Assembly: GCA_965248695.1 (NCBI GenBank)
Contig: CBDFKD010000002.1
Coordinates: forward strand, 5,664,001 to 5,728,000
Direction: 5' to 3'
DNA from: Acidobacteriota bacterium
Lineage (GTDB): Bacteria > Acidobacteriota > UBA890 > WLXD01
Length of the DNA stretch: 64,000 bases
Below the pieces are notes generated by a model. That model ran no database searches. It worked only from the letters and a program-made list of their open reading frames with translations, and was not told the origin of the DNA. The position numbers and the translations under genes are program-made. Positions 49,170 to 54,860 of this stretch are shown here, one piece after another; within the stretch, counting starts at the first letter, position 1; each line of letters begins with the position of its first letter.

Positions 49170-49693
49170 TCACGGAGGAAGATGCGGCGAGGCCCCTCGG
49201 CCGCTGCCGACTCAGCCTGATCGTCGCCGTGGCCGAGAACGGCACTATCGGGCGCGACGGCGCTCTCCCCTGGCACCTGCCAGACGATCTTAGGCGATTC
49301 AAGGCGGTCACCCTCGGACACCCGATCATCATGGGTCGGCGGACATACGATTCGATCGGCCGGCCGCTGCCGGGCCGGCGAAGCATCGTGCTCAGCCGCG
49401 ACCCCGACTATCGGGTCGACGGCGTTGAGGTCGCCGGATCGCTCGACGCGGCGTTGCGGGCCGCGGCGGATCAGGATGAGGTCTTCGTCATCGGCGGCGC
49501 CGCGCTCTTCGACGCAGCACTACCGATCGCCGATCGGATCTATCTGACTCGGGTGCACGCCACCGTCGAAGGAGACGTTGGGTTTCCACAGCTCGATGCA
49601 AAGCGCTGGCGGCTGATCTCCGATGAGCCTCACGCTGCGGATGCGGAGCACCGTTTCGCCTTCAGCTTCCGCATTTACGAGTTAGTGGCGTAA
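49166..49693 (+). CDS. folA: Dihydrofolate reductase (last codons supplied by the integrated element)
   Basis: [46 protein letters not shown] overlap with thyA. Confidence 0.95.
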
Positions 49694-49706
49694 GTGATTG
49701 ACTCAA

Positions 49707-50954
49707 TTAGACTTGCTCATTCATCGTCTTGGACTGGGTGCGCGGGGGGTGCGCGTTCCGCCTCAGAGGGTGCATTACCAGGGTCGTCGCCTGACCCTCG
49801 ATCACGTGCGAATACGTCTCCAGTATCTCGGTGGTGGAGTGCCCCATTCGCCTTGCTACTTCTTGCGGGTGCGCCGTCTTGAGCGCGTGGGTTGCCCACG
49901 CGTGACGGAATCCGTGGAGCCCAAAGTCGGGCACGCCTGCCTTGCGCACGAGCCGCTTCCAGACCGTATTGCGATAGCTGCTAGCTCCGACCGGGCCGCC
50001 GTGGCGATGCCTAAACACCCACTTTGACGGCGCCCTCCCACAACTAACCGCGTCACGGTCCTGCTTGGTGCGATGGTGGCGCAGCCGGACCGCGAGATCC
50101 GGGGAGATCGGTAGCTTTTGGTAGTTACGGTTCTTGGTATGGCCGCGCACCTCGGAGCGCACGAACTGCCGCTCGATCAGAACGTGGTTGTCCTCGAAGT
50201 CCAGGTCGGCCCACTGTAGCCCGCACGTCTGGGAGATCCTGCACCCGGTCTCCATCAGGAACTCGAGCAGGCACCTGTCGCGGGTTCCCAGGTAATCGGC
50301 GGCCCTATCAATCCGCTCCAGTTGCCCGCGTGTCCACGCCTTGGGCGGCTTCTTGATCTTGCGGACCTTGGGGAGTTGCTTGCGGGTGACCGGACTCGAC
50401 TCAATCAGTTCATCCTCGGCCGCGGACGCCATGAGCGCCGACAGCACGCGGAAGACATTGCGGACCGTCTTTTGGCCCAGCGGCCTGCCGTAACCCTCGC
50501 CACGCTTGCCCTTGTCTCCACGCTTGCCGTACTTCGCCACGCCGGCGATCCACAACTTGACCGCTCGCTTGGAAATCTCGGTAATGGGCCTGTGTCCTAG
50601 CGCCGGCAAGATGTGACAGTCGAGCGTCGATCTGTAGATGGCTATTGTCGTCGGCGCCCAACCGTCGTCAGTGGAGTTGACCGCCTCCCACTCTTTGGCG
50701 TACTCGCCAACGGTCACGACCTTGGCAGGCAGGACGCTGTCGGCCGCCTGGCGCAGCGCCTCCCTGACGCTCCCGCCGTAGCCTGCAGCATCGGCCCTCG
50801 CCATCAACCGCGAAAACTCAACCGCCGCTGCCTCCGCCTCGGCCTTGCTGATGAAGCTGTACGAGGCTCGGTGCCCTTTGCGGTTGATGAACACCCACCA
50901 CTTGTCTGAGCCTTTCTTACGCCTGACCCGCACCCCCACGTTGGCCCCCTTCAC
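49707..50954 (-). CDS. Tyrosine integrase
   Basis: N-terminal arm-binding region (WWVFINRKG); SAM-like HILPALG; catalytic TGCR, TKN, HGFRH, MGHS, TYSH all present. Confidence 0.93.
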   Translation of the reverse strand: MKGANVGVRVRRKKGSDKWWVFINRKGHRASYSFISKAEAEAAAVEFSRLMARADAAGYGGSVREALRQAADSVLPAKVVTVGEYAKEWEAVNSTDDGWAPTTIAIYRSTLDCHILPALGHRPITEISKRAVKLWIAGVAKYGKRGDKGKRGEGYGRPLGQKTVRNVFRVLSALMASAAEDELIESSPVTRKQLPKVRKIKKPPKAWTRGQLERIDRAADYLGTRDRCLLEFLMETGCRISQTCGLQWADLDFEDNHVLIERQFVRSEVRGHTKNRNYQKLPISPDLAVRLRHHRTKQDRDAVSCGRAPSKWVFRHRHGGPVGASSYRNTVWKRLVRKAGVPDFGLHGFRHAWATHALKTAHPQEVARRMGHSTTEILETYSHVIEGQATTLVMHPLRRNAHPPRTQSKTMNEQV

Positions 50955-51211
50955 GACGCGTCTCTCATCAGGCGTTCAAGCACGAGAGCCCTACCGTCGA
51001 TTCGCTCGACGTTGTTGTAGGGCTCCAGCCACGCCTGAAAGTCGCCCCATCGTATACGGACTTCTCGGGTACCTGGGATGCGTTTTGCGGGCAGCGGATT
51101 GATCTCACGATTAATCCACCTCGTGACACTGTTGGGGCTGACGTTGGCGCGGTCGCACAGCTGCTTCTTCCGCAGCATCGTGTCCGGGTGCAGCGGCGCC
51201 GGCTCGGTCAC
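50951..51211 (-). CDS. Excisionase-like HTH protein
   Basis: LRKKQLCDRANVSPNSVTRWI..LPAKRIP..VRIRW..FQAWL; coupled to int by GTGA. Confidence 0.75.
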   Translation of the reverse strand: MTEPAPLHPDTMLRKKQLCDRANVSPNSVTRWINREINPLPAKRIPGTREVRIRWGDFQAWLEPYNNVERIDGRALVLERLMRDAS

Positions 51212-51381
51212 TTGGCCCGCCTCAATGCGTTGCGCGACGCTACGACCCTGAAGCCGTCCTCGAACTCAACGAGCGCGCTGTTCATCTTCCCGCGGGCCAG
51301 GACACGACAGCGCTGGCCATTCCGGTCTACCGGGCGCCACCAGCTCGGCAGCCAGTACCAGATGTACGGGTAGTCCCTCAC
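51208..51381 (-). CDS. Small phage-type hypothetical protein (57 aa)
   Basis: MRDYPYIWYW..GQRCRVLARGKMNSALVEFEDGFRVVASRNALRRAK; GTGA overlap with xis; below the ORF-track cutoff. Confidence 0.65.
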   Translation of the reverse strand: MRDYPYIWYWLPSWWRPVDRNGQRCRVLARGKMNSALVEFEDGFRVVASRNALRRAK

Positions 51382-51606
51382 TTGGCGGCACTCCGGACAT
51401 CTTCAATAGAGAGCGCCCCGTCGAAGAAGACGGAGAGAGCTCCAGCCACCGCATCCGTGTTGAGTGGATCAACGTCTCCTAGCCATCCGCGGCGATGTCT
51501 CCAGCCACACCCCGTCCAGGTGGGCTATCTGGGTGCTGGGCGTGGGACCAGCCGGCGACTCTCTTGCGTTCGCGGGGTGCCAGGGCCTTCTACTCGGACT
51601 GTTGCC

Positions 51607-52056
51607 CTACGGCTCGTGCTTCGAGTGCGGGGCCTGCATTCGAACCCATCGCCGATACTGACTGGGCAGCATCCCGGTTTCGGCTTGGAACGCGTTGAGA
51701 AATGAGCGGTACGAATGTCGGCGATAGCCCGCCTCCGACGCGATCTCCTTCATCAGCTGCTGGGGCCGTGACTCCATCAGTTCGCGCGCTTTGTCGATCC
51801 GCAAACGGCGGATGTCCTTGCCGATCGTTGTCCTGTAGGCGGCACGATAGTGGCGGCATAGTAGACTTCGGGAGATTCGGAGCTGCGCTGCGATGGTCCC
51901 GACCCCGCATCCATCTGCTGCTGCGAAGTGTCGTTTGATCTGCGCCTGTGCCAGCTCTGCGACGCCAATCTTGGCGGCGTCAGGCGCTTTCCTAGATGGC
52001 AGCGTCAGGTCGTGGCGCCTTTTCGTGCCGGGTATCGCCGCGTCTGATTCTACCAT
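51607..52056 (-). CDS. Stand-alone AraC-type HTH DNA-binding protein
   Basis: IAAQLRISRSLLCRHY..RLRIDKARELM..MKEIASEAGY..FLNAFQAETGMLPSQYR; no N-terminal sensor domain. Confidence 0.85.
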   Translation of the reverse strand: MVESDAAIPGTKRRHDLTLPSRKAPDAAKIGVAELAQAQIKRHFAAADGCGVGTIAAQLRISRSLLCRHYRAAYRTTIGKDIRRLRIDKARELMESRPQQLMKEIASEAGYRRHSYRSFLNAFQAETGMLPSQYRRWVRMQAPHSKHEP

Positions 52057-53615: not shown

Positions 53616-53743
53616 CACCTGCTCAGAGAGCGCCGCGCCGAGGTCGCTCAAATCATCCTGGTGGCCCGAAAGCTGAGTCGATCCCCTAAGCGCTTCGGCC
53701 CAGGGAGACGAACAGCAGGTCCTAGCCGACCGCGGTACGGCCG

Positions 53744-54107
53744 TCATGCGACCCGTCCCAGGCCGAGCAACTCCTCGAGCCGCCACACCACTTCGTCCCG
53801 GCTGATCTCCGGATGGTTCAGGTAGGTCGCCGCGTAGTAGCCGGCCACGTAGGGCTTGAACCACTCGGCGTGCTCGAAGATGTACGGCCGCTCCATGACC
53901 ACGCGGCCCTGAACGTTGAGGTGGCAGCGCTGGCAGAGCGCGACAAGGTTCCACCAGGAGCAGTTGGCCTTGTCCATGTCTAGGTGGTGGACGGTCAGCG
54001 TGTAACCGGACTCCACGTCGTGCGGGTGATCGCAGCGGGCAGCACCATCCGGAAGCGTTCTTCACGGCTGCGGCGATCTGGTGCCAGTCGTGCGGGTAGT
54101 CGTTCAC
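53744..54107 (-). pseudogene. Phage HNH endonuclease-like gene, frameshifted near 54038
   Basis: MNDYPHDWHQIAAAVKNASGWCC in one frame, RCDHPHD..LTVHHLDMDKANC..NLVALCQRCH in another. Confidence 0.75.
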
Positions 54108-54445
54108 ATCACCCTCTCGCTACCACCGAGCCCTTCGATCGCCTCGAGGACATCCGACCGGCTCGGCGGTAGAACACGGTCAGCGGCGAGGCGGGCGGCG
54201 ACGGCCACGAACATAGGGTCGTGGCCTTGAACACACGCCGTTGTCGGGCGACAGCCGCAGACTGGGCACTCCCAAGACACGTCGTATCCCATCCGCTTCG
54301 CCAACTGCTGCACGGTCTCGTAGCTCGAAGCCCGTCCGCCCGGCGCTCCTTGCCAGATGCATTCGAACTCGTCCTCGCCCACGAGCCGCCAGGCGCTGGC
54401 GGTCGGGTACCGGCCGACGATGATGCAGCGCGGCTTGTCGCCCAT
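54104..54445 (-). CDS. Hypothetical phage protein with a CxxC motif
   Basis: Overlap-coupled to neighbours at both ends; WECPVCGC. Confidence 0.5.
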   Translation of the reverse strand: MGDKPRCIIVGRYPTASAWRLVGEDEFECIWQGAPGGRASSYETVQQLAKRMGYDVSWECPVCGCRPTTACVQGHDPMFVAVAARLAADRVLPPSRSDVLEAIEGLGGSERVM

Positions 54446-54528
54446 CAGGCTGCGGGCTCCACAACCCAGGGCGCGAGCTTCCACTTGCCGCCGTGGTACC
54501 GCATGATGGGGCGCGCCGGCGCGGTCAT
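54445..54528 (-). pseudogene. N-terminal remnant of a Dam-like DNA adenine methyltransferase
   Basis: MTAPARPIMRYHGGKWKLAPWVVE matches the Dam motif X (RY.GGK..L..WI), then stops. Confidence 0.7.
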
Positions 54529-54734
54529 CCCCAACCCCAGCCGGACGGATACCCACACCGATGGCACAGATTGCGAAAGACGATCGCCTCGATGCGTCCG
54601 GAGCCGCAGCGTGGGCAGCGGCCGAGCAGCGTCAGCGCGCCACGGCGCACCCGGATCCAGACCTCAGCCAGGCGCCTCATGCGGCCCGCACCCAGCGTGA
54701 ACGCCAGGGTGCGCATAGGGTGCGTTTTGAGCAC
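54525..54734 (-). CDS. Small zinc-ribbon hypothetical protein
   Basis: CPRCG..LCHRCG; ATGA overlap with the Dam remnant; start uncertain. Confidence 0.4.
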   Translation of the reverse strand: MLKTHPMRTLAFTLGAGRMRRLAEVWIRVRRGALTLLGRCPRCGSGRIEAIVFRNLCHRCGYPSGWGWG

Positions 54735-54860
54735 CCGGCGAGAGGCCTGCCCCCCGAAACCACTGTCGCTAAAGGGGTTGGAAATGCCCCGATAAATCTT
54801 CCGCGTCTACGAGCCCACGGCATCCGCTTCCTAGCCGCGCTCCTGCTGCGGCCCAGGCGG

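What the first reader, a model, noticed from the sequence alone, without database searches (positions are those of the whole stretch)
49666..54813. Integrative element that targets folA and rewrites the DHFR C-terminus
Seen: folA now ends FRIYELVA*, while a displaced in-frame tail FRVYEPTASAS* lies at 54799-54834. The two ends share CTTCCGC. The reconstructed attP reads TAAAT-CTTCCGC-ATTTA, a 7-bp overlap flanked by inverted core sites as in lambda-type att. Tandem 11-bp-period GGGTGCG arm-like repeats occur near both ends. The integrase keeps R-K-H-R-H-Y and a xis-like gene is adjacent. Inference: a possibly still excisable element using an essential folate gene as attB, so integration state switches between two DHFR C-termini. 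I do not know folA as a described integration hotspot.
Basis: partly seen in the sequence, partly recalled or inferred. Interest (0 to 1): 0.78.

Follow-up and report, generated by a model that had tools for sequence, protein, structure and literature searches.

The report
Small integrase island inserted in folA's end
A 5.1-kb mobile island carrying its own integrase sits inside the last codons of the dihydrofolate reductase gene and supplies a substitute gene end, a well-known way for such elements to insert without harm, here at a target gene that I could not find reported.

Summary
A 5,132-bp segment (49666-54797) is bounded by identical 7-bp cores (49666-49672 and 54798-54804). It splits folA after codon R167. 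All four other genomes of the genus have the uninterrupted site, with folA running straight into the same convergent neighbour gene. The island supplies I-Y-E-L-V-A-stop. The original tail, F-R-V-Y-E-P-T-A-S-A-S-stop, lies displaced at 54799-54834. The swap changes one conservative residue inside the DHFR fold (V to I) and replaces a tail that varies freely in the genus, so a functional "switch" is unlikely.

The integrase is intact, with all six catalytic residues and a modelled lambda-like N-terminal domain. An excisionase-like gene overlaps its start. GGGTGCG pairs at 11-bp spacing occur in both arms and nowhere else in the 64 kb. However, the right-hand array belongs to a conserved sequence present in 1 to 8 further copies in each of the five genus genomes, mostly without an integrase nearby, so its role as an arm site is unsettled.

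No second case of folA targeting was found, and excision could not be tested because only contigs were available. Verdict: a new member of a known kind, of modest interest.

The parts
48351..49169 (+). thyA (thymidylate synthase), upstream host gene. Its stop overlaps the folA start.
   Evidence: Pfam PF00303, E 2.4e-121
49166..49693 (+). Hybrid folA (DHFR, 175 aa by the database gene call). The host part runs to R167; the last 6 codons and the stop come from the island.
   Evidence: Pfam PF00186, E 5.8e-61, residues 14-170. P0003 is 175 aa at 100% identity. Query residues 14-170 align to E. coli DHFR residues 2-157.
49666..49672 (+). Left core (attL overlap), CTTCCGC
   Evidence: identity with relatives' folA ends here, and island sequence begins at 49673.
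49673..49693 (+). Island-borne surrogate folA end (I-Y-E-L-V-A-stop). Its first 9 bases match the host sequence at 7 of 9 positions.
   Evidence: On the other side of the core only 3 of 9 bases match (read).
49707..50954 (-). Tyrosine integrase, 415 aa, intact. Convergent with folA, with its stop 14 bp from the folA stop.
   Evidence: PF00589 E 2.6e-27 and PF14659 E 3.6e-7. PHROG 1 E 1.2e-59. Catalytic residues. Model and fold matches.
49736..49753 (+). Left-arm (P') pair of GGGTGCG at 11-bp spacing, inside the integrase's last codons (AHPPRTQ). A further copy lies at 49867-49873.
   Evidence: A 21-nt run is identical in the integrase fragment elsewhere in the genome. The C-terminal tail, residues 389-415, is modelled as disordered with pLDDT about 30.
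50951..51211 (-). Excisionase-like helix-turn-helix gene (86 aa), overlapping the integrase start
   Evidence: HTH_17 E 1.3e-4, below the cut-off. PHROG 66 E 6.7e-6.
51208..51381 (-). 57-aa ORF overlapping the xis-like start by 4 bp. No family found.
51496..51539 (+). Short conserved sequence 'A' in the gap upstream of the orf57-xis-int genes. Multi-copy in related genomes.
51607..52185 (-). AraC-type HTH protein (C-terminal HTH_18 only)
   Evidence: PF12833 E 1.3e-13
52061..52384 (-). Orphan 107-aa ORF. A diverged second copy lies at about 53250-53600.
   Evidence: Only itself found in 5.8 billion proteins. Repeat D1 is 81% identical over 102 nt.
52368..52700 (-). 110-aa ORF with no significant family
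52739..53245 (-). MarR-type regulator
   Evidence: PF13463, PF12802 and PF01047. NCBIfam MarR-type hits, all below their cut-offs.
53744..54107 (-). HNH nuclease gene that appears split by a frameshift. About 21 N-terminal codons lie in one frame and the HNH core (53744-54016) in another.
   Evidence: PHROG 1571 E 1.6e-7. Three further copies at 79% identity in the same genome.
54104..54445 (-). 113-aa ORF. Only two distant relatives in 1.84 billion representatives.
54525..54734 (-). 69-aa ORF whose first codons overlap the right-arm repeat array. Probably not a conserved gene.
   Evidence: Other copies of the array carry in-frame stops.
54680..54778 (+). Right-arm (P) array 'B'. Order: CGCACCC (54687-54693), 13 nt, GGGTGCG (54707), 4 nt, GGGTGCG (54718), GCACCC (54731-54736), then a conserved stretch to 54778. 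A further reverse-strand copy of the motif lies just outside, at 54646-54652.
54798..54804 (+). Right core (attR overlap), CTTCCGC
54799..54834 (+). Displaced original folA tail, F-R-V-Y-E-P-T-A-S-A-S-stop
   Evidence: It aligns to the folA ends of G001-G004.
54861..58349 (-). Host FG-GAP/TPR/ASPIC-UnbV protein gene. It is the direct convergent neighbour of folA in relatives.
   Evidence: Pfam; alignment

Best explanation
A 5,132-bp non-autonomous genomic island was inserted by its own lambda/Tn916-type tyrosine integrase into the last codons of the chromosomal folA gene. It carries an integrase, an excisionase-like gene, two HTH regulators and orphan ORFs.

Shown:
- The boundaries are two identical 7-bp cores.
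- The orthologous site is empty in all four sister genomes.
- The island carries a 21-nt substitute gene end, so DHFR stays full-length with one conservative change (V168I) and a new 3-residue tail.
- The old tail is left behind at the far junction.

Inferred:
- Strand exchange took place within the 7-bp core, flanked in the circular form by 5-bp inverted core-type sites.
- The integrase's N-terminal domain binds the GGGTGCG pairs in both arms.
- The HTH_17 protein directs excision.
- folA-like sequence is the cognate target, because similarity between island and host extends only on the side that the island must replace.

Whether the island can still excise is open. Its effect on DHFR function is most likely nil.
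For: Boundaries, empty sites and tails:
- ORFs and sequence at both junctions.
- 4 of 4 genus genomes have the uninterrupted site and the same downstream gene.
- Contigs built independently of the assembly bridge both junctions.

Integrase:
- Pfam and PHROG hits.
- Six catalytic residues invariant in 4 of 4 sequences and aligned to the Tn1549 integrase.
- In the AlphaFold model, strands 7-12, 19-25 and 28-34 plus helix 37-57 have pLDDT 81-88.
- The best fold matches are the Tn1549 integrase (E 3.6e-10) and full-length lambda integrase 1z1g_A (E 1.3e-8, 398 alignment columns).
- The xis-like gene overlaps the integrase start.

Arm repeats:
- GGGTGCG is the only 7-mer family at least twice in both arms, and the only two 11-bp pairs in 64 kb lie there.
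- The left pair lies in 21 nt that are identical in a 54%-identical integrase fragment whose surrounding DNA has diverged. That stretch encodes a tail modelled as disordered.

Target specificity: 7 of 9 bases match on the 3' side of the core against 3 of 9 on the 5' side. By my own binomial estimate, 7 or more of 9 has a chance of about 1e-3.

DHFR is kept whole:
- The Pfam domain reaches residue 170.
- The alignment to solved DHFRs ends at E170, equivalent to E. coli E157.
- Isoleucine occurs naturally at this position in other DHFRs (P0093, P0121).
Against: - This is one event only. 0 of 67 loci with integrase relatives hold a DHFR gene. 0 of 24 relatives' folA loci hold an integrase-like ORF. 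0 of 202 ORFs of 170 aa or more lying within 2.5 kb downstream of DHFR, in the 80 viral-contig loci kept of 526 confirmed, matched the integrase profile. 0 of 11 ORFs from four boundary-placed loci matched an integrase family in Pfam.
- The nearest integrase relatives sit elsewhere. The 44%-identical one is on G004 contig C2 while that genome's folA is on C6. Relatives at 29-34% identity lie by tRNA-Lys or tRNA-Ala genes.
- No attB or attP joint was seen in contigs of 4 runs, and contigs drop rare forms.
- There are signs of decay or immobility: the HNH gene is frameshifted, no replication, transfer or capsid gene was found, and the hybrid DHFR tail is unique in the databases searched.
- The right-arm array is a member of a genus-wide repeat with 1-8 further copies per genome. 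Only 1 of 11 such loci has an integrase-like ORF within 9 kb. It may therefore not be an integrase arm site.
Confidence: 0.85

Rival explanations
1. The same integration event happened, but the island is now a fixed, immobile remnant. It is decaying cargo with an integrase that is no longer used, so there is no 'integration state' to switch.
For: - The HNH gene is split by a frameshift.
- There is an internal duplication with one copy running on past the other's stop.
- No mobility genes other than int and xis were found.
- No attB or attP joint appears in the contigs of 4 runs.
- No second copy of the island exists anywhere: only 1 protein other than itself matches the integrase at E<=1e-30 among 5.8 billion, and 0 of 119 DHFRs carry the hybrid tail.
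- GC content of 0.59-0.67 (mostly 0.61-0.65) lies just below the 0.64-0.70 of the flanking host DNA.
Against: - The integrase ORF is full-length with all catalytic residues.
- The two cores are identical.
- The xis-int overlap is kept.
- Both arms keep their repeat pairs.
- Contigs cannot show rare excised forms.
Confidence: 0.45
2. This is an off-target (secondary-site) insertion. folA is not the element's usual target, and the integrase merely used a chance 7-bp match.
For: - Identity between the two sites is only 7 bp.
- No other folA-associated relative was found.
- The nearest integrase relatives lie at other loci.
Against: - Similarity extends 7 of 9 bases on exactly the side that must be replaced, against 3 of 9 on the other side.
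- The island's sequence there is in frame, keeps the conserved Y-E, and stops after three more codons.
- This is the pattern expected of a cognate 3'-end target.
Confidence: 0.12
3. The GGGTGCG arrays are not integrase arm sites. They belong to a host or genus-wide repeated regulatory or structural DNA element (sequence 'B') that happens to lie in the island.
For: - The pattern of two GGGTGCG at 11-bp spacing occurs 4, 2, 2, 1 and 8 times in the five genus genomes, against 0 for the reversed control.
- 13 of the 14 copies other than the three GCGG-spacer (P'-type) ones share the same 17-mer.
- Only 1 of 11 B loci has an integrase-like ORF within 9 kb.
- No island protein lies near them.
- The copy behind the 3-hydroxybutyryl-CoA dehydrogenase gene is at the same place in two species.
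- By my reading of the ORF list, 4 of 8 copies face the 5' end of a gene.
Against: - A pair of the same motif at the same spacing lies in the other arm, inside the integrase's own 3' end, and is perfectly conserved in an integrase paralogue.
- In the island and at the dehydrogenase locus, the conserved unit ends about 20 nt before the junction or gene end. That spacing fits an att arm.
- The integrase is modelled with an arm-binding-type N-domain.
Confidence: 0.35
4. The junctions are an assembly artefact (a chimeric join in a metagenome-derived genome).
For: The holder runs are metagenome-sized, 8.7 to 16.2 million contigs each. The short-read contigs break at 53822-53904, where a 47-nt stretch has higher depth.
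Against: - An 8,908-nt contig covers 48800-53870 with 0 differences in two runs.
- Contigs of 1,217 to 1,234 nt cover 53841/53858-55074/55076 in three runs.
- Both att junctions are therefore bridged.
- The break lies in the multi-copy HNH core, not at a junction.
- The anatomy (cores, displaced in-frame tail) is not what a chimera gives.
Confidence: 0.02

Closest known systems
Lambdoid phage 21 and the e14 element integrating in the 3' end of icd in E. coli (recalled from memory; no paper read here)
   Same: A tyrosine integrase inserts inside the 3' coding end of a housekeeping enzyme gene. The element carries a substitute 3' end, so the enzyme stays functional with a slightly altered C-terminus. 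The original end is left as a displaced fragment.
   Different: The target gene differs (folA against icd). The substitute here is only 21 nt with a 7-bp identity block. The island is 5.1 kb with no phage genes. Nothing is known about its excision.
SGI1-type islands at the 3' end of trmE, and dusA-specific integrase islands (abstracts in the search listing: PMC8409611, PMC6531882, PMC4482086)
   Same: Small integrase-plus-RDF islands specific for one protein-coding gene end. They are non-autonomous and rely on other elements for transfer.
   Different: Those families are defined by many independent occurrences at the same gene. Here there is a single occurrence, no relaxase, oriT or mobilisation gene was found, and the integrase is not shown to be related to them.
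tRNA/tmRNA-gene islands as catalogued by Islander/TIGER (abstracts in the listings: PMC4383910, PMC12424338)
   Same: The logic is the same: the target is split, island sequence regenerates it, and the regenerated target and displaced fragment mark the two ends. More distant relatives of this integrase (29-34% identical) do sit by tRNA genes.
   Different: The target is a protein-coding gene. I could not query that database, so I cannot say whether it already lists folA targets.
Tn1549/Tn916-type and lambda integrases (solved structures 6emy, 6en0 and 1z1g)
   Same: Best sequence and fold matches: phmmer E about 1e-9 and Foldseek E 3.6e-10 and 1.3e-8. The catalytic residues are the same, and there is a three-domain layout with an N-terminal sheet-plus-helix domain.
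   Different: Only 14-22% identity. Tn916-type integrases tolerate variable overlap sequences and many targets, whereas here the two cores are identical.

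Membership tests
Heteronomous (lambda/Tn916-type) tyrosine integrase | Catalytic R-K-H-R-H/W-Y set in a Phage_integrase domain | tested here: met
   PF00589 E 2.6e-27. R239, K274, H347, R350, H372 and Y381 are invariant in 4 of 4 sequences. They align to the Tn1549 integrase, including its Y379F position.
Heteronomous (lambda/Tn916-type) tyrosine integrase | Core-binding SAM-like domain preceding the catalytic domain | tested here: met
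   PF14659 E 3.6e-7, residues 81-136. Helices 82-141 in the model. Fold matches over 309-415 alignment columns for the whole-protein entries (Tn1549 326-331, lambda 1z1g 398).
Heteronomous (lambda/Tn916-type) tyrosine integrase | Separate N-terminal arm-binding domain (three-stranded sheet against a helix) | tested here: inconclusive
   The model has strands 7-12, 19-25 and 28-34 plus helix 37-57 at pLDDT 81-88, and full-length lambda integrase 1z1g_A aligns over 398 columns. However, no Pfam family covers residues 1-80, the alignment behind the model has only 4 sequences, and no domain-level comparison was made.
Heteronomous (lambda/Tn916-type) tyrosine integrase | Repeated arm-type sites in both att arms, distinct from the core sites | tested here: inconclusive
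   The motif is locally enriched and paired at 11 bp in both arms only. The right array is also a genus-wide multi-copy sequence, mostly without integrases nearby. Binding cannot be tested here.
Heteronomous (lambda/Tn916-type) tyrosine integrase | A 6-8 bp overlap flanked by inverted core-type sites | tested here: met
   There is a 7-bp identity block with mismatches directly on both sides. TAAAT and ATTTA flank it in the inferred circular form. This rests on sequence only; cleavage positions were not tested.
Integrative island that restores the 3' end of a protein-coding target (icd/trmE type) | Insertion absent from the orthologous site of close relatives, with conserved flanks | tested here: met
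   4 of 4 genus genomes
Integrative island that restores the 3' end of a protein-coding target (icd/trmE type) | Target reading frame completed by island sequence, with the displaced original end at the far junction | tested here: met
   The DHFR domain is complete to residue 170.
Integrative island that restores the 3' end of a protein-coding target (icd/trmE type) | Recurrent use of the same target by the element or its integrase relatives | tested here: not met
   0 of 67 integrase-relative loci have a DHFR gene. 0 of 24 relatives' folA loci have an integrase-like ORF. 0 of 80 viral-contig DHFR loci do. The one 54%-identical homologue (P0002, on a 2,286-bp contig) could not be fetched.
Integrative island that restores the 3' end of a protein-coding target (icd/trmE type) | Excision to a circle and an empty site | not testable with these tools
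   Only Logan contigs of 4 runs of one sample were served, with no raw reads.
Prophage, ICE or IME (autonomous or mobilisable element) | Capsid or packaging genes, or conjugation, relaxase or oriT functions | tested here: not met
   None among the 11 island ORFs in Pfam, PHROGs or NCBIfam; the 10 other than the integrase were also scanned in PADLOC. The only PHROG 'terminase small subunit' hit is a weak HTH match, E 0.0066, on the xis-like protein.
Xer/dif-type integrating elements (IMEX) | Use of host XerC/XerD, or an integrase that is a XerC/D equivalog | tested here: not met
   The XerC, XerD and XerA models score 60-65 bits against cut-offs of 220-335.

The most novel reading that the evidence does not exclude
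The island is the one intact member of a genus-wide family of very small int-xis elements that use the ends of housekeeping enzyme genes as targets: folA here, and the 3-hydroxybutyryl-CoA dehydrogenase gene at a second locus. Their conserved arm module (sequence B, four GGGTGCG-type sites) persists as 1-8 solo copies in each of the five genus genomes. Those solo copies could be integrase-less mini-att elements that such integrases move or recombine in trans, rather than dead relics. This would explain why B is far better conserved across species than neutral DNA should be.
Probability: 0.12. Interest if true: 0.6.

Novelty: new member of a known kind. Interest (0 to 1): 0.3.

Why it matters
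If the reading is right, it adds folA to the list of protein-coding genes used as attachment sites by tyrosine-integrase islands. folA is needed in any cell that makes thymidylate with ThyA. The case is a clean, minimal example: 7 bp of identity plus a 21-nt substitute gene end.

It could give a compact integrase/att pair for an uncultured, high-GC lineage. An attB inside a near-universal gene is of some practical interest for integrase prospecting.

It does not suggest a change in folate metabolism or drug sensitivity. The multi-copy arm-like sequence may be the more interesting lead.

Tried and rejected
1. Excision evidence. The four runs holding the stretch are all from one sample and one study, and are kept as contigs only. 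Laying them showed no joint at the cores. The single listed joint (49435 to 55012, side 21 nt, in X1 and X4) is not at the att cores. It may come from another organism, so I draw nothing from it.

2. Integrase relatives next to folA.
- Genome contigs with the single protein gave only 5 distant loci at 23-28% identity.
- The order (26 genomes) and the phylum (401 genomes) gave at best 44% and 37% identity.
- The 5.8-billion-protein search gave one homologue at 54%.
- Metagenome and viral scans with a 4-sequence alignment gave 41 and 8 loci, all at most 49% identical in the best segment and at most 32% over matches of more than 100 residues.
- None of the 67 loci has a DHFR gene.

3. The reverse approach.
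- Of 526 DHFR matches in viral contigs, the best 80 loci were kept.
- 0 of 202 ORFs of 170 aa or more lying within 2.5 kb downstream of DHFR hit the narrow integrase profile, even at E<=10.
- 11 ORFs from the four loci where DHFR lies near a contig end were scanned in Pfam, with no integrase.
- The profile was built from 4 sequences and can miss distant recombinases.

4. Literature. Searches found no report of folA as an attachment site. One search was spoiled by 'fola' matching 'folate'. I read passages of PMC13492144 (folA appears only as phage cargo) and of PMC12884075 (no mention). The paper I recalled as the TIGER method paper is not held. No supplements were opened, and the TIGER/Islander database itself could not be queried, so 'not reported' holds only for these searches.

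5. Cargo function.
- PADLOC: only weak HNH and wHTH hits.
- ESM Atlas: no usable hit for the 107-aa ORF.
- Homologue search for the 107-aa ORF: only itself.
- Representative search for the 150-aa ORF: 2 distant hits.
- Rfam: 0 matches at E<=1 over 48000-56000.
- Promoter scan: 0 sites. The 8 terminator-like sites, against 3.3 expected, were not followed up.

6. tRNA target: none in the window.

8. I looked for an A-B pairing of the two multi-copy sequences. Only 2 of 18 loci hold both, so I dropped the idea that they bound a cassette.

Full report
**What is there**

The window carries thyA (48351-49169) followed by folA, whose GTG start overlaps the thyA stop. The open frame ends FRIYELVA* at 49693. 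The database gene call is 175 aa (P0003).

Fourteen bases after the folA stop, on the other strand, a 415-aa tyrosine integrase gene ends (49707-50954). Upstream of it, overlapping its start, lies an 86-aa helix-turn-helix ORF (50951-51211). A 57-aa ORF overlaps that one in turn.

Further right, all on the minus strand, are:
- an AraC-type HTH protein;
- an orphan 107-aa ORF;
- a 110-aa ORF;
- a MarR-type regulator;
- a diverged second copy of the orphan ORF;
- an HNH nuclease gene;
- two small ORFs.

CTTCCGC occurs at 49666-49672 and again at 54798-54804, 5,132 bp apart. From 54799 an in-frame FRVYEPTASAS* can be read. Right of that lies the 3' end of a large FG-GAP/TPR/ASPIC gene on the minus strand. 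No tRNA gene is in the window.

**Is it an insertion?**

Yes. I searched 40 relatives for the DHFR and read the gene ends. The four other genomes of the genus end folA in FRVYEPTDEPPG*, FRVYEPIDQ...*, FRVLEPTRQQSE*, or, in G004, an open frame that runs on.

In a DNA alignment, the window's left junction matches the relatives up to and including the core. The right junction matches them from the core onward, into the same convergent neighbour gene.

None of the 24 relatives' folA loci holds an integrase-like ORF.

Contigs built independently by Logan from four runs of one sample bridge both junctions. One piece covers 48800-53870 with no differences. Others cover 53841/53858-55074/55076. The junctions are therefore not an artefact of the genome assembly. 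The only break, at 53822-53904, lies in the HNH core, which has three more copies at 79% identity elsewhere in the genome.

**What the insertion does to DHFR**

The Pfam domain and the alignments to solved DHFRs end at residue 170, which pairs with E157 of the 159-residue E. coli enzyme.

The crossover lies after R167. The island supplies I168-Y169-E170 and then L-V-A-stop. The ancestral sequence was V-Y-E followed by P-T-A-S-A-S. Inside the fold this is a single V-to-I change, and isoleucine is found at that position in other natural DHFRs.

The tail beyond E170 is free to vary in this genus. It runs from about 7 residues to more than 90 in G004, where a small deletion removes the stop.

G000 has one DHFR match, and thyA is adjacent, so the gene is presumably needed. 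The island keeps it whole. None of the 119 nearest database DHFRs ends IYELVA, so the hybrid is unique to this genome.

I therefore read the 'two C-termini' as a by-product of harmless insertion, not as a switch.

**The recombination machinery**

- The integrase matches Phage_integrase (E 2.6e-27) and the SAM-like core-binding domain, and PHROG 1 (E 1.2e-59).
- It is far below the cut-offs for XerC, XerD, XerA or integron integrases.
- R239, K274, H347, R350, H372 and Y381 are invariant among four homologues. They pair with the catalytic residues of the Tn1549 integrase, with Y381 on the position that is F in the Y379F crystal form.
- An AlphaFold model (4-sequence alignment, mean pLDDT 71) gives a confident N-terminal three-stranded sheet plus helix (residues 7-57, pLDDT 81-88). 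It also gives a disordered tail, residues 389-415.
- The best fold matches are the Tn1549 integrase and full-length lambda integrase.
- The HTH ORF matches HTH_17 below Pfam's cut-off, and PHROG 66 'excisionase and transcriptional regulator' at E 6.7e-6.

**The attachment sites**

The identity block is exactly 7 bp, with mismatches on both sides.

Similarity between island and host continues for 7 of 9 bases on the 3' side of the core but only 3 of 9 on the 5' side. By my estimate the chance of 7 or more of 9 is about 1e-3. That asymmetry is what selection for an intact target gene produces. It argues that folA-like sequence is the cognate site rather than a chance secondary site.

**The arm repeats, and a complication**

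GGGTGCG is not enriched in the window as a whole, with 23 found against 22.7 expected. But 8 of the 23 lie in the island. It is the only 7-mer family present at least twice in both 250-bp arms. The only two same-strand pairs at 11-bp spacing in 64 kb are at 49736/49747 and 54707/54718.

The left pair lies in the integrase's last codons. A 21-nt run containing it is identical in a 54%-identical integrase fragment elsewhere in the genome, although the surrounding DNA has diverged. It encodes the part of the protein modelled as disordered. That favours a constraint on the DNA.

The right array, however, belongs to a conserved sequence of about 100 nt, here called B. It consists of four motif copies, two of them inverted, followed by a conserved spacer.
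- The same-genome copy behind the 3-hydroxybutyryl-CoA dehydrogenase gene is 84% identical over 99 nt by the genome search, and 93% over the 58-nt core by short-word BLAST; it is aligned.
- That copy is at the same place in G004.
- The two-motif pattern occurs 4, 2, 2, 1 and 8 times in the five genus genomes, against 0 for a reversed control.
- Some copies have in-frame stops, so it is not a gene.
- Only 1 of 11 B loci has an integrase-like ORF within 9 kb.
- No island protein is encoded near them.

B may therefore be the relic arm of a family of related elements. It may equally be a host repeat or operator, or something mobile in its own right. I could not decide between these.

A second short multi-copy sequence, A (51496-51539), lies upstream of the int operon.

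**Is folA a habitual target?**

I found no second case.
- The integrase has only one database relative at E<=1e-30. It is 54% identical and on a 2,286-bp contig that I could not fetch.
- Within the order and the phylum, the best relatives are 44% and 37% identical and are not by folA.
- More distant relatives lie by tRNA-Lys or tRNA-Ala genes.
- 0 of 67 loci with integrase relatives contain a DHFR gene.
- Among 80 viral-contig DHFR loci, none has an integrase downstream.
- Literature searches gave no report of folA as an attachment site. These were listings, abstracts and a few passages only. No supplements were opened, and the island databases were not queried.

**Is it still mobile?**

Unknown.
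- For mobility: an intact integrase, identical cores, a kept xis-int overlap, and repeat pairs in both arms.
- Against mobility: a frameshifted HNH gene, no transfer, replication or capsid gene, and no other copy anywhere.
- Contigs showed no excised form but cannot exclude one.

**Comparison with what is known**

Splitting a gene's 3' end and regenerating it from island sequence is the standard behaviour of tRNA-gene islands. It is known for protein-coding targets too: icd for phage 21 and e14 (recalled), and trmE for SGI1 and the 5' end of dusA (abstracts seen).

This island works like those. It meets the anatomical criteria: an empty site in relatives, identical cores, a regenerated target with a displaced fragment, and a terminal integrase. 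It does not meet the criterion of recurrent use of the same target. It is not a prophage, ICE or IME by gene content.

**Verdict**

This is a new member of a known kind, with an apparently unreported target gene and an unexplained multi-copy arm-like sequence as a side lead.

Noticed in passing
window 54680-54778; L098/L217 (G000:C2 about 5010803-5010901); L195/L216 (G004:C14 about 47319-47540); other copies listed: A conserved non-coding sequence of about 60-100 nt ('B') carries four GGGTGCG-type sites. Two of them form inverted 6-mers around a 7-nt spacer, like a recombinase core site. It occurs 1-8 times in each of the five genus genomes, and its 17-nt centre is almost invariant. The island's copy is closer to the same genome's copy behind the 3-hydroxybutyryl-CoA dehydrogenase gene than that copy is to its orthologue in G004.
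   Followed up: partly
window 51496-51539: A second short sequence ('A', about 44 nt, with a hairpin-like inverted repeat) lies in the gap upstream of orf57-xis-int. It is multi-copy in G001-G004 and G007 at 80-93% identity. Short contigs of higher depth in the metagenome match it too.
   Followed up: partly
window 52061-52384 and about 53250-53600 (repeat D1: 52070-52171 / 53301-53402): There is an internal duplication of an orphan ORF, sharing the motif VVCGYYW.NG.C.VLVVLTVQSK.GF. Each copy lies just upstream of an HTH regulator (AraC-type, MarR-type). The second copy lacks the stop and runs about 60 codons further. No homologue exists in 5.8 billion proteins.
   Followed up: partly
window 53744-54107; G000:C2:3846123, 2319472, 709267: The island's HNH nuclease gene appears frameshifted after about 21 codons. 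Three other copies of its core (79% identical, 164 nt) lie elsewhere in the genome, and related pieces occur in G002 and G007. This looks like a small mobile HNH gene family.
   Followed up: partly
L027/L218 (G000:C2:4613362-4613787): A C-terminal integrase fragment, 54% identical to residues 273-410, lies between an amidinotransferase-like gene and an isopropylmalate/homocitrate-synthase-like gene. It keeps the 21-nt stretch containing the GGGTGCG pair unchanged.
   Followed up: partly
L004 (G004:C6:104054-104545 and beyond): In G004 the folA frame has no stop at the usual place and reads on for some 90 codons, antisense to the neighbouring gene. A short deletion relative to G002 removes the stop. 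This shows how little the DHFR tail is constrained in this genus.
   Followed up: no
L036/L102 (G004:C2:327968-329119): The 44%-identical integrase in G004 also has an upstream ORF whose C-terminal stretch looks, by eye, like the xis-like protein's (no alignment was run). It lies about 270 bp beyond the 3' end of an ORF that I read, from its sequence alone, as a GNAT-type acetyltransferase, following one that I read as a DegT-type aminotransferase (neither was scanned against a family library). There is no tRNA nearby. This may be another protein-gene-end target in the same lineage.
   Followed up: no
P0007 (database DHFR, 175 aa, on a 6,668-bp contig): A close DHFR relative ends ...EHGFRVQLPRLRAHG, which is the +1-frame reading of the conserved attB region. 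It is probably a frameshift or a sequencing error in that contig.
   Followed up: no
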